From Octopus sinensis (lineage: Eukaryota): DNA of 64,000 nt. The notes under the pieces are model-generated. The model did no database searches. It was not told the origin of the DNA and saw only the letters and a program-made list of their open reading frames with translations. How positions within the stretch are numbered: the stretch's first letter is position 1; each line of letters opens with the position of its first letter. The DNA lies in contig NC_042998.1 of assembly GCF_006345805.1 (NCBI RefSeq), forward strand, positions 79,298,001 to 79,362,000. Reading direction: 5' to 3'. Made by a program: the position numbers and the translations under genes. Positions 2,000 to 63,640 of the stretch are shown here, piece after piece.

Positions 2000-2034
2000 C
2001 TGCATGACGGTTTGTAAGCCGAAACTTCGAAGTA
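2000..2034 (+). ncRNA. Degenerate minimal hammerhead ribozyme motif
   Basis: CUG(C)AUGA-CGGUUUGUAAGCC-GAAAC-UUCGAA-GUA: palindromic stem III, but an insertion in the core and no stem I pairing. Confidence 0.4.
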
Positions 2035-3298
2035 AAGTCACTGTCAACTTTTCTTTGTAAACACACACACACACATATATATACTTACATACACACACAC
2101 ACACACACACACACACATATTTCTGTGTAAGATTATGAATATATGTGTGCATGTATATGTATTACTTATATATAAATGTTTATATGTGTATGTGTGTTTG
2201 TCCATTGTGTGTATCTACAATATTCAAACCTGTTAGCATTTGTGTACATATTAATGAGCTTACGTATGAAAGTATATGTGTGAGTTTATGTGTCACCCTC
2301 CTCTAATATCCATATTTAACGCAAGCCAACTTCTCTAAATAAGTCAAGCCCCGCTACCATCCCAACGAAATTAAATTTATGGCTCTCTGAACCGACTATA
2401 GCGAAACTTTATCAAATTTAATAACGCTATTCGAAATCTTTCTCTAATAATAGTGTCTCCGACCACCCCTAATCACCTCGCACAGAAATTTATAACTGTA
2501 CAAACCCGTACCAATCTAAATAACCTGTCTCGCTTATCCCATTTATCTCATTAATGTTATTATTATATTTCTGTTATTACCACAATTACATCTGCATATA
2601 TTCTACCATTTCCTTACTTCGTATCTACTACACGTATATTCTCTGTCCTCACCTCATCCCGTTATCTCTTTCTAAGAACTTCTATTAGCTTTTTCTAATT
2701 ATCTTTTCATATTCTATTTATCCACTTTTTATTGTAATCTTTCTTTCCTTGTACATATTTACCTCGTTGCATTCTTAATAATTTATATACACATTTATGG
2801 TTACCTTTGTATATACTCCGATTCCAAACAAGCATTATTGTTTTATGTTTGAACGTGGCTTTACCGTTGTCCAAATTCGGTCGAACATTCTCAGCTACAA
2901 AGAGAGCACATATGGAAGATTTCATTGGATGCATGCTTAGCAGAATCGCAAAAATTGAGAAGTAATTCATTCACATAGCTTTGAATAAATCTTATTTCAC
3001 TCTACTTCACCACGTTGAGTACTTGCTTGTTTGTTATTTTGTATTCCTTAACTGTAAAACAAACACCGACGTGTATAATATACACGATTCCTTTATATCA
3101 CACATGCGCACAACTGGTTGAAGGAACGAATACAAGACAAGAAAATCAAAATAGAGATGAAGCGATTCATGAGCTTCGAACGAGTAAATGAACAACGCTA
3201 CACATCTAAATATGCCCAAATATCTATGTACAAAATTTGTAAGATCCGATAGAATTAGATATCTAAATAGTAAAAGAACCAAAGTAGTGTCGTGGATA

Positions 3299-3718
3299 GG
3301 CGCAGGAGTGGCTGTGTGGTAAGTAGCTTGCTAACCAACCACATGGTTCCGGGTTCAGTCGCACTGCGTGGCATCTTGGGCAAGTGTCTTCTGCTATAGC
3401 CCCGGGCCGACCAAAGCCTTGTGAGTGGATTTGGTAGACGGAAACTGAAAGAAGCCCGTCGTATATATGTATATATATATATATATGTATGCGTGTGTGT
3501 GTGTTTGTGTAGTCTGTGTTTGTCCCCCTAGCGTTGCTTGACAACCGATGCTGGTGTGTTTATGTCCCCGTCACTTAGCGGTTCGGCAAAAGAGACCGAT
3601 AGAATAAGTACTGGGCTTACAAAAGAATAAGTCCTGGGGTCGATTTGCTCGACTAAAAAGGTGGTGCTCCAGCATGGCCACAGTCAAATTGACTGAAACA
3701 AGTAAAAGAGTAAAAGAG
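3299..3718 (+). mobile_element. tRNA-derived SINE family A (CORE-like), full length
   Basis: A-box TGGCTGTGTGGT, B-box GGTTCAGTC, CORE-like CTTGGGCAAGTG, internal microsatellite and (GTAAAAGA)n tail; many copies in the window. Confidence 0.9.
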
Positions 3719-4004
3719 AAAAAAGAGAGAGAGAGTGCATTAGTGCACTAATAATGTATTGACATATATGTACTTACTAAAATAAATACGGACTCATCAC
3801 GCCAAGTAATGAACGAATATGCAACGAGTACGCACAGTCACACTAAGCACTCATACTTTGGTTTCGGAAAATTAAACTATGAATTTTCATGCCTCTTTTT
3901 TTTTCTTCACTTTTTCCATCTCCTTATTTTTTTTACTCCTTTCCTCTATGTTGTCAACTTATTGATATATACCATTCTCATTTTCCATATTTTTTCCCCA
4001 ACGT

Positions 4005-61289: not shown

Positions 61290-63130
61290 GCGGCCCATGT
61301 TTGATACTATGCAACAAAGACCTATCATTGGCTCCTTAAATTCTACGCCCTCTATAAATGAGGTAATAATATCAATAAGTAAATTGAATCTTGGTAGGGC
61401 ACCTGGAAAGGATGGAATTTGTGCTGAGGTCTTGCGATTTGGTGGTGATTACATCATACAGTCCCTTCATGAACTCATTAGTGCAGTCTGGAGGGATGGT
61501 ACAATGCCTAAGGACTGGAAGGATGCAATTATTCTTCCTCTCTATAAAGGAAAAGGAGCTAAAACAATGTTAGGTAACTACAGAGGTATTGCTCTACTAT
61601 CAGTTGCTGGCAAGGTTCTGGCAAAGATTCTTCTTACCCGCCTGAATGGGTGTCTCATAAGTGATGTCCTATCTGAATCTCAATGTGGCCTCCGATCTGA
61701 TAGAGGGACAATGGATATGATCTTCACAAGATATATGCAGGAGAAGTGCTATGAGCAGAATATGAATCTTGTTCAGGTATTCATTGATTTAATGAAGGCC
61801 TTTGATGCTGTTAATAGGGCCTTGCTATGGAAAATACTTGGCAAACTTCGATGTCCGGATCACTTTGTATCTACAATGGGGATGGAGGCTTGGGTCAATG
61901 CTGATGGTGGCATGGCGGGACTCATTCCTGTAGAGAATGGTGTCAAGCAGAGTGACACCATTGCCCCAACTCTCTTTTCTTTGTACTTTTATTCATGTTT
62001 TACTAAGGTTAGCTCTCTGGGAATATATGTCAGGTATCGATCTTCTGTCCGCCTCTTTAATCTGCGCCGATTTACTGCCATTTCAAAAGTTTCCCATCTT
62101 TATACAGATGACTGTGTCTTAGTCACTCATACAGTGGGTGACATGCAAATACTTATGAATTGTATTTCTGCTTCTTACAAGGCATTTGAACTCAGCATTA
62201 GCCTGGACAAGACTGTTGTAATGTTCCAGCCTGCACCAGGAAACCCATATGTGGAACCAGTTATCTTAGTTGAAGGAATAATTCTGAATGTGGTAGACAA
62301 ATTTGTCTACCTGGGGAGCACACTCAGCCGTTCTTGCTCCCTGGATGATGAAATATCTTTCAGGCTGCCGAGAGCAACTGATTGCTTCCGATCTTTTCAA
62401 TATCGTATCTAGTCCCAGGATGGCATCACAAGCAAACAAAAATTGCTGTGTACTGTGCATGTTTTACTCATGTCAGACATGGACTCTTTACAAACGTCAT
62501 GTAAGGGTCCTTGAACGCTTTTATCAGAGATGTCTCAGACAGTCTGAATGTTGGCTGGTCCTTAAAAACTCCAGACACACAGGTCCTGAGGACAGCTGAT
62601 ATCTTGAGTATTGAGGCGATGGTGCACAAGCACCGGTTACGTTGGACTGGGCACCTTATTTGAATGAAGGATAGCAGGATCCCTAAGTAGATGCTATATG
62701 GGGAACATGTGAATGGAAAGAAACCCCGGTAGAAACCAAGGCTACGATTTAAGGTCTGTGTCAAGTCCTCATTAAAGGCCTGTGAGATGCAGGAGACTGA
62801 CTGGGAGAACAATGCCTATCATCGCCACAGATGGAGGAAGCAGGTTAAGGAAGGGGGTTGACACTTTTAAGAGAGCACGTATTCTGCATGAAGAACTTAA
62901 GCGTGCTACTCGAAGGCGCACTGCTGATGTAGTAAATGGGGAAAGCTTGGTTTGCAATGTTTGCATTCGTGTATGCTTGTCAAGAGTGGGGCTCATCAGA
63001 CACCAACGGAGTCGCAAATGCAGAATATATGTTAGTCCTAGAGCGCACAATGTTCCTGTATGTATGTATGTATGTATGTATGTATGTATGTATGTATGTA
63101 TGTATGTATGTATGTATGTATGTATGTATC
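61290..63130 (+). mobile_element. RTE-clade LINE: degenerate RT (ORF 61186-62412), C-terminal zinc finger, (TGTA)n tail
   Basis: GRAPGKDGI, NYRGIALLS, SESQCG, FIDLMKAFD, GVKQ..APTLF, YTDD, FVYLGS, CNVCIRVCLSRVGLIRH; internal deletions and stops. Confidence 0.92.
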
Positions 63131-63414
63131 GATGGATGGATGGATGTATATACATACGCAAACTTGTATGTGGCGTGGCTGTGTGGTATATAACTTGCTT
63201 CCTAATCACATGGTTACTGGTTGAATCCCACTGCGTGGCACCTTCTACTGTAGCTTTGAGCCGACCGTCATATATATATATATATATATATATATATATA
63301 TATATATATATATATAATAACACATATATATAAAGTGGGGACAAGTATAAAGAACAAAATACAGAGGAAAGGCAATGAAAAGAGACTTTTTTAAGTAAAA
63401 TTTCTTTCATAAAA

Positions 63415-63640
63415 TATTTCCGCCGAGGTCAACTTTGCCTTTCATCATTTTGCTGTCGACAAATGGGTACCAGTTGAGCAGTGGGATCGATGTAATCGAT
63501 TCACCGATGAAGAGCTATGCTCGAAACGTTAACAACTCTCTCCTTTCACCAAGCGTCAAATTAATATATTGCTTGTGCACGTCCTCACGTTCGATTTTTT
63601 GTTTTTTTTCTGTTTTTTAATTGTTGTTCTTTGAATTGAC
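63415..63640 (+). mobile_element. SINE family B fragment fused to a family D-like hammerhead fragment
   Basis: CCGCCGAGGTCAACTTTGCCTTTCATC..GATGTAATCGA is followed directly by CCGATGAAGAGCTATGCTCGAAACGTT. Confidence 0.7.

What the first reader, a model, noticed from the sequence alone, without database searches (positions are those of the whole stretch)
2000..63530. Unusually dense, diverse set of type I hammerhead motifs (about 15 in 64 kb, several unrelated contexts)
Seen: motifs at 2000, 4005, 5474, 5873, 12781, 30948, 31418, 42581, 48806 and 52748, plus family D. The flanks and stems II are mostly unrelated, yet the CUGANGA/GAAAC/GUH core persists. Stem III takes different palindromic or near-palindromic forms (ACAGCUGU, ACGCGCGU, ACGUACGU, ACAAUUGU, ACUUCGAAGU, ACGU), which looks like structural covariation. 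Most lie in short islands beside (TA)n or (GATA)n tracts. Inference: a radiation of ribozyme-bearing Penelope-derived short elements tied to microsatellites. Family-specific palindromes could act as dimerisation codes.
Basis: partly seen in the sequence, partly recalled or inferred. Interest (0 to 1): 0.75.

Follow-up and report, generated by a model that had tools for sequence, protein, structure and literature searches.

The report
Hammerhead tails of many Penelope retrotransposons
This stretch of animal DNA is littered with small hammerhead-ribozyme motifs that, in six of ten families traced, are the tail ends of Penelope-like jumping genes sitting beside TA repeats; their self-complementary arm likely lets two copies pair and cut each other, a design already published, and it shows no sign of being a selected family code.

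Summary
The motifs are real: 12 type I hammerhead hits against 0.47 in shuffles. The genome carries roughly 120,000 such motifs (46 in 1 Mb); this window is about 3.7-fold denser than average. Six of ten window families were traced to the 3' ends of Penelope-like elements: five Hydra-like, one Neptune-like. So they are mostly 5'-truncated autonomous elements, not a radiation of short elements. The (TA)n link is real and lies mainly downstream (22 of 33 within 300 nt, against 13%), as published for these clades. Helix III centres are self-complementary even when left unconstrained (64 of 69) and switch by compensatory or G-U steps within lineages, which fits the published dimer model. The code idea failed: unrelated families share palindromes as often as a random draw predicts, and cross-compatible pairs are not depleted (low power). 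Cleavage is untested. The scan reached the same reading before on other genomes. Verdict: new members of a known kind.

The parts
2000..2043 (+). Decayed hammerhead (core insertion, displaced stem I), 10-nt palindromic helix III
   Evidence: (family 297 vs 2 control)
4005..4060 (+). Intact type I hammerhead, AGCU-centred helix III; (TA)n 47 nt after the predicted cut; parent ORF not found (0 of 10 loci)
   Evidence: (2133 vs 1)
5474..5523 (-). Intact hammerhead with 6-bp stem I and a 4-bp hairpin helix III (possibly works as a monomer); family has no dedicated search
5873..5935 (-). Intact hammerhead (U4C core) at the 3' end of a young Hydra-like PLE family; the window copy is cut by the N gap at 5987-6086
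   Evidence: (17 of 24 loci have the family's ORF ending within 200 nt upstream)
7727..7842 (+). Decayed family D copy (broken core)
12279..12489 (-). Family D copy between TA tracts; hammerhead at 12375-12409, loopless ACGU helix III
12781..12869 (-). Hammerhead-like motif with intact core but broken first stem I pair and non-palindromic helix III; unverified
23652..25166 (+). Broken Neptune-like PLE (RT + zinc-finger linker + GIY-YIG); ends in a TA tract before its own hammerhead
30948..31026 (-). Intact hammerhead, GCGC-centred helix III; family of about 500-600 nt with some tandems and inverted pairs; no ORF in 0 of 21 loci
31418..31458 (-). Intact hammerhead, near-palindromic 3-bp helix III, beside a (GATA)n tract; Hydra-like ORF 736-797 nt upstream in 3 of 23 loci
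37009..37389 (+). Family D copy (hammerhead 37073-37107) followed by an internally deleted second copy
42500..42725 (+). 3' end of a very young Hydra-like PLE (copies 98-99% alike); hammerhead 42582-42661 with G-U palindrome AUGU
48343..48491 (+). Decayed family D copy
48806..48911 (+). Decayed hammerhead, AAUU-centred helix III; family has a Hydra-like ORF about 400-425 nt upstream in 5 of 23 loci
52748..52840 (-). Intact hammerhead, GUAC-centred helix III; older family with a Hydra-like EN upstream in L211 and an inverted RT in L208 and L215
57354..57737 (-). Family D partial head-to-tail pair (hammerheads 57455-57489 and 57674-57708, 219 nt apart): the only same-family direct pair of cores in the window
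63504..63616 (+). Family D fragment with its 5' side replaced by another repeat; stem I broken

Best explanation
The motifs are type I hammerheads, in six of ten traced families carried at the 3' end of Penelope-like retroelements and left beside (TA)n as 5'-truncated copies, and their self-complementary helix III likely evolved to let two same-family copies in one tandem transcript swap strands and cut. Shown here: the motifs, their excess over chance, their place downstream of RT/GIY-YIG ORFs, a fixed 3' end next to TA repeats, inverted and partial-tandem layouts, and compensatory changes in the palindrome. Inferred: the endonuclease targets TA repeats; reverse transcription starts about 40-110 nt downstream of the cut site and often stops early, so the hammerhead end piles up. 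A dimer needs helix III and stem I to pair across copies, so any family specificity is probably a by-product of divergence in both. Most solo copies are probably inert.
For: Excess over chance: 12 vs 0.47; genome patterns 2133 vs 1, 19034 vs 1501, 13116 vs 0, 297 vs 2. PLE links: an 856-aa open frame with Hydra-clade marks (RW, DKT, CxxC before E) ends about 650 nt upstream of the 42582 family core (L178; clade marks from PMC8557442 section 11). The 5873 family has RWK, CxCX5C, CxxC and CxH. Family D lies downstream of RT + CX4CxxC + GIY-YIG in 2 of 7 extended loci. TA link: 22 of 33 within 300 nt downstream vs 393 of 3110 random positions; upstream 10 of 33. Palindromes with the centre unconstrained: 64 of 69 distinct motifs, 14 of 17 families; 87 of the 100 listed genome rows by hand count. 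Switches within one cluster: ATAT/ATGT/ACGT, GTAC/GCGC, CATG/CTAG. Dimer predicted 10-18 kcal/mol below two monomers for 6 of 11 motifs.
Against: No cleavage data. Four families are not tied to an ORF: 4005 (0 of 10 loci), 30948 (0 of 21), 5474 (no dedicated search) and 2000 (the window copy matched no locus by blast). The links for 31418 (3 of 23) and 52748 (1 clear of 20) rest on few loci at 34-35% protein identity. Pfam gave no hit on the L178 ORF; its RT call rests on motifs, the Atlas and a weak pairwise match (E 0.005). The energy model does not favour the dimer for three of the four family D copies (+1.9; the fourth, with stem II unfolded, -2.1) or for 5474 (+1.7). The active fold is the minimum-energy fold for none of the 11. 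Family D copies contain the whole hammerhead, and only 1 of 35 fragments starts near the cut site, so they were copied from uncut RNA. This matches PMC11167929, where cleavage was not needed in vitro.
Confidence: 0.85

Rival explanations
1. The palindromes are a selected family code that keeps co-resident families from cross-dimerising.
For: At least 10 different Watson-Crick centres occur (hand count). Different families lie about 410-430 nt apart on one strand in the window (5474/5873, 30948/31418) with incompatible arms. Only 1 of 190 family pairs is compatible in both helix III and stem I.
Against: One palindrome is shared by 4 families and four others by 2 each. There are 9 distinct among 15, against 9.9 by chance. 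The single doubly compatible pair equals the permutation mean of 0.80 (P 0.83), so there is no depletion. Lineages change palindrome through G-U steps that stay cross-compatible. The test covers only 20 families, so power is low.
Confidence: 0.1
2. The unlinked families (30948, 4005) are non-autonomous non-LTR retrozymes spread as circular RNAs by PLE enzymes.
For: The 30948 family shares only about 300 nt upstream and has 596-599-nt tandems (L192, L202). Other families in the genome form 488-558-nt tandem arrays (L026, L064; first rows). The kind is described in molluscs (PMC7229834).
Against: Family D looked the same at first and proved to be a PLE 3' end. Its head-to-tail junctions are rare (6, against 984 copies of the 5' motif) and have variable linkers. 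Inverted pairs, typical of PLE insertions, are common.
Confidence: 0.3
3. The motifs are kept as protein-assisted or structural RNA signals and rarely cut; the palindrome pairs two pLTRs for packaging or template switching rather than for catalysis.
For: Copies derive from uncut RNA. PMC11167929 found cleavage only with the element's protein and not needed for insertion. PMC4209133 found low activity even in dimers.
Against: The catalytic core and the 3-8 pair are kept, with compensatory U3-A8 and A3-U8 versions, and the UH site is kept, which points to selection on catalysis.
Confidence: 0.2
4. Chance matches in low-complexity AT-rich DNA.
For: One of the 12 hits (33279) probably is chance; Rfam showed no hammerhead among 150 listed matches.
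Against: Shuffle and reversed-sequence controls, and high-copy families keeping the core.
Confidence: 0.01

Closest known systems
Minimal and small-palindromic-helix-III hammerheads in pLTRs of metazoan Penelope-like elements (Cervera and De la Pena 2014, PMC4209133; read parts 1-2 of 4, searched supplement file 2; file 1 not searchable)
   Same: Type I topology, short stem I, often an extra nucleotide before stem II, palindromic helix III, many divergent families per genome, mostly solo copies, opposite-strand pairs 100-700 bp apart, U3-A8 variant, proposed dimer activity.
   Different: Many families here have 8-12-nt palindromes and long (50-100 nt) domains II. The estimated load (about 1e5 in 2.7 Gb) exceeds the 4,000-9,000 quoted there for vertebrates. 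No octopus entry was found in the searchable supplement.
Hydra- and Neptune-clade EN+ PLEs (Craig et al. 2021, PMC8557442; passages and section 11)
   Same: C-terminal GIY-YIG, Hydra marks (RWK, DKT, CxCX5C, CxxC, CxH), canonical hammerheads, (TA)n insertion bias, 5' truncation, inverted copies, optional tail.
   Different: Several distinct Hydra-like families coexist here, one with an intact-looking 856+ aa frame and a long low-complexity linker. Clade placement is by motifs only; no tree was built.
Dimer-cleaving PLE hammerheads (Lunse, Weinberg, Breaker 2017; paper not held, seen only through the review PMC6765202, passages) and Perreault et al. 2011 Fig. S8 legend (PMC3088659, passages)
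   Same: Palindromic stem/loop III read as a dimer interface.
   Different: Dimer cleavage was measured there; here it is only predicted.
Non-LTR retrozymes (Cervera and de la Pena 2020, PMC7229834, passages and section 14; bioRxiv 10.64898/2026.07.22.740005, part 1 of 5)
   Same: Type I hammerheads in low-GC repeats, some in tandem, related to pLTRs. The axolotl has 126,247 such motifs, so 1e5 copies is not unprecedented.
   Different: Window copies are almost all dispersed 3' ends; tandem units here are about 490-600 nt rather than 170-400 nt.

Membership tests
Type I hammerhead ribozyme | Core CUGANGA / GAAA / UH closed by an open stem I | tested here: met
   11 window motifs; four of them (5873, 12375 and the decayed 48806, 63504) carry U4C
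Type I hammerhead ribozyme | Helix II and helix III can form | tested here: inconclusive
   Helix II forms in most motifs but not at 57674; helix III is 0-4 bp as a monomer and full-length only as a dimer
Type I hammerhead ribozyme | Self-cleavage after H17 | not testable with these tools
   Only contigs of runs not on record as RNA were available
PLE pLTR hammerheads | Located 3' of a PLE RT + GIY-YIG ORF | tested here: met
   6 of 10 families; not shown for 4005, 30948, 5474, 2000
PLE pLTR hammerheads | Palindromic helix III | tested here: met
   64 of 69 with the centre unconstrained; three window families only near-palindromic
PLE pLTR hammerheads | 5' truncation, inverted or partial tandem copies, optional tail | tested here: met
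Hydra-clade PLE | RWK, DKT, CxCX5C linker, CxxC and CxH in the EN, no CCHH | tested here: met
   5873 family shows RWK, CxCX5C, CxxC, CxH; 42582 family shows RW, DKT, CxxC, CxH in some copies, no clear CxCX5C
Hydra-clade PLE | Phylogenetic placement of the RT | not tested
   No reference sequences at hand; no tree built
Non-LTR retrozyme | Non-coding head-to-tail repeats of 170-400 nt, each with a hammerhead | tested here: not met
   Family D: 6 junctions vs 984 copies, and a coding parent; 30948 family inconclusive (about 600-nt pairs)
Non-LTR retrozyme | Abundant circular RNA | not testable with these tools
   No raw RNA reads

The most novel reading that the evidence does not exclude
Dozens of co-resident Penelope families in this genome have walked through dimer-only palindrome space by G-U intermediates, and helix III plus stem I together form a naturally orthogonal set of two-part RNA keys, so that each family's transcripts cut only their own kind, even in trans between solo copies.
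Probability: 0.1. Interest if true: 0.6.

Novelty: new member of a known kind. Interest (0 to 1): 0.27.

Why it matters
The design is published, so the surprise is low. The value is as material. One genome holds about 1e5 motifs in at least 29 families, with compensatory series in a helix that can only pair between two molecules, and a young family with an intact-looking ORF. That is a ready test set for the open question of whether and why PLE hammerheads cut. My searches found no paper describing hammerheads in an octopus genome; the library lacks most subscription journals.

Tried and rejected
Rfam scan: only microsatellite-driven matches among the 150 of 198 rows shown. Direct-repeat finder: swamped by microsatellites; replaced by a masked self-blast.

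The window's own Neptune-like fragment was first tried as the parent. None of 30 loci had a canonical hammerhead downstream, because that family has an A3-U8 core.

Family D as a fixed-length SINE or circular retrozyme: rejected once longer copies and the ORF were found. A footprint of cleavage in 5' ends of family D: not seen. ARAGORN found no tRNA.

RNA evidence: no RNA holder listed; contigs laid on L178 gave no joint or end at the predicted cut and decide nothing. TA-tract density per 10 kb did not correlate significantly with hammerhead kinds (rho 0.15, P 0.13).

The Lunse paper was not held. A search for heterodimer or code work on these motifs gave two unrelated papers. R-scape was not available.

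Full report
Observation. A type I hammerhead descriptor finds 12 hits in the window against a mean of 0.47 (max 2) in 60 block-wise dinucleotide shuffles. Requiring C15.2-G16.2 leaves 11, with 0 in the reversed window. Those at 2000, 12781 and 48806 are decayed; 2000 and 48806 belong to families that keep the core, while 12781 has no relative among the loci fetched. Family D has four descriptor-positive and three decayed copies. Rfam did not show them among 150 of 198 listed matches.

Genome context. In 100 evenly spaced 10-kb stretches (999,700 bases) the strict descriptor gave 46 hits, against 2 in reversed sequence, or about 120,000 genome-wide. Exact patterns agree: 2133 vs 1, 19,034 vs 1,501, 13,116 vs 0 for family D, 297 vs 2. 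The window (11) is above the bootstrap mean of 2.95 (P 0.012; by kinds 8 vs 2.2, P 0.0008). It was chosen for this feature, the bootstrap ignores regional clustering, and its two flanks hold 3 hits in 20 kb. It is a rich sample of an ordinary landscape.

What the motifs belong to. The 42582 motif ends a very young family (98-99% identity, many inverted pairs). [quoted passage not shown] Pfam missed it, the Atlas placed it with RT-bearing eukaryotic clusters, and it carries Hydra-clade marks listed in PMC8557442 section 11. The 5873 motif lies within 200 nt of its family's Hydra-like ORF in 17 of 24 loci (the query came from one of these loci). Hydra-like ORFs lie upstream of the 48806 family in 6 of 23 loci (5 at 398-425 nt), of the 31418 family in 3 of 23 at a constant distance (two further hits judged chance), and of the 52748 family in 1 clear locus of 20 plus two inverted ones. 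Family D looked like a 216-nt SINE: 17 of 35 fragments from outside its own search start in its first 20 nt. Longer copies exist, and 2 of 7 extended loci reach a Neptune-like RT, zinc-finger linker and GIY-YIG about 1.8 kb upstream, collinear at 86%. No ORF was found for 4005 (0 of 10) or 30948 (0 of 21); 5474 and 2000 were not adequately tested.

Microsatellites. In the random sample 22 of 33 motifs have (TA)5 within 300 nt downstream, against 393 of 3110 random positions; upstream it is 10 of 33 against 12%. In the window 8 of 11 are within 200 nt downstream, against 11%. Family ends are fixed just before the tract. This fits the (TA)n preference reported for Hydra and Neptune PLEs (PMC8557442).

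Palindromes. My main descriptor favours palindromes, so I repeated the count with the four central bases free. Result: 60 Watson-Crick and 4 G-U palindromes among 69 distinct motifs, 13 of 15 in random stretches only, 14 of 17 families. Chance is 6% and 14%. A hand count of the 100 rows listed (the first 12.8 Mb of C1, tandem copies included) gave 67, 20 and 13 neither, with 10 different Watson-Crick centres. Within clusters the centre switches while staying self-complementary (ATAT/ATGT/ACGT, GTAC/GCGC, CATG/CTAG). A self-complementary tetraloop has no use in a monomer, so this points to a two-molecule helix. The energy model favours the strand-swapped dimer by 10-18 kcal/mol for 6 of 11 motifs, not clearly for the four family D copies and not for 5474, and the active fold is never the minimum-energy fold. 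Palindromic helix III and dimer action are already described (PMC4209133; PMC3088659 Fig. S8 legend; review PMC6765202).

The code test. I ran it after reading earlier notes that had rejected the idea elsewhere. Of 142 distinct motifs in 39 clusters, I kept 29 clusters (10 weak singletons dropped), 20 of them self-complementary. One palindrome occurs in 4 families and four in 2 each. Fifteen Watson-Crick 8-mers show 9 distinct types against 9.9 for a random draw. Twelve of 190 pairs could pair in helix III, and 1 also in stem I, against a permutation mean of 0.80. Most families therefore could not form active heterodimers, but mainly because stem I differs, and no more often than chance predicts. 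The sample is small and mixes ages.

How it likely works. Shown: position, layout, conservation. Inferred: a PLE transcript with two pLTRs can form a double hammerhead and cut itself to unit length; the endonuclease nicks TA repeats; reverse transcription starts a short way downstream of the hammerhead and usually stops early, leaving solo 3' ends. Family D copies hold the whole motif, and only 1 of 35 starts near the cut, so the templates were uncut or religated. Head-to-tail junctions are rare and irregular (6 vs 984), which argues against rolling-circle copying for this family. This matches PMC11167929, where cleavage needed the element's protein and was not required for insertion. In inverted pairs only one copy is sense, so they cannot dimerise in cis. 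In the window only 57455/57674 is a same-family direct pair.

Verdict. Real and well above chance, but new members of a known kind. The code reading is unsupported. RNA data were uninformative. Supplement file 1 of PMC4209133 and the Lunse paper could not be seen and may already list cephalopod motifs. Interest 0.27.

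Noticed in passing
L074-L102 (relatives of window 23652-25166): The Neptune-like family whose fragment is in the window has a minimal hammerhead with A3-U8 instead of C3-G8, a 2-bp stem II and a 6-nt palindrome: 712 matches vs 0 control, 90 of 100 listed rows A3-U8 by hand count. A paper search found only U3-A8; earlier scan notes saw A3-U8 in other genomes.
   Followed up: partly
L019:9282, L031:6584, L036:8748, L068:3312, L069:2827: U3-A8 cores with 6-nt palindromes, some downstream of Neptune-like ORFs; standard C3-G8 descriptors undercount this genome.
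   Followed up: partly
L026:6400-8100, L064:2800-5300, G000:C1:257506-400174: Tandem arrays of 488-558-nt hammerhead units, often with an inverted arm: candidate non-LTR retrozymes.
   Followed up: no
L178:4738-8420: Near full-length young Hydra-like PLE with an 856-aa frame (frameshift near the end in this copy), a long Asn/Ser-rich linker and a tail of about 150 nt present on one arm only.
   Followed up: partly
window 10979-11739: Second fragment of a Neptune-like PLE RT, inside an inverted-repeat arrangement 10801-12096.
   Followed up: no
window 61168-62600 and 47019-47360: LINE-type RT fragments (RVT_1, E 4e-25 for the first); probably RTE-like (recalled).
   Followed up: no
window 465-1100 and 55402-55870: Fragments resembling restriction-like-endonuclease LINEs (recalled look, no Pfam support); earlier notes report permuted hammerheads in HERO elements of this genome, which my descriptor would not see.
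   Followed up: no
window 16600-17160, 19515-19750, 21400-22400, 39286-39510, 63418-63500: Abundant SINE-like repeat family without a hammerhead; a second family at 3296-3700, 25898-26323, 28770-29071, 43216-43717.
   Followed up: no
window 5987-6086: Assembly gap 52 nt upstream of the 5873 hammerhead; it probably hides more of the Hydra-like element.
   Followed up: no
window 52811-52975: Inverted repeat inside the 52748 element just upstream of its hammerhead.
   Followed up: no
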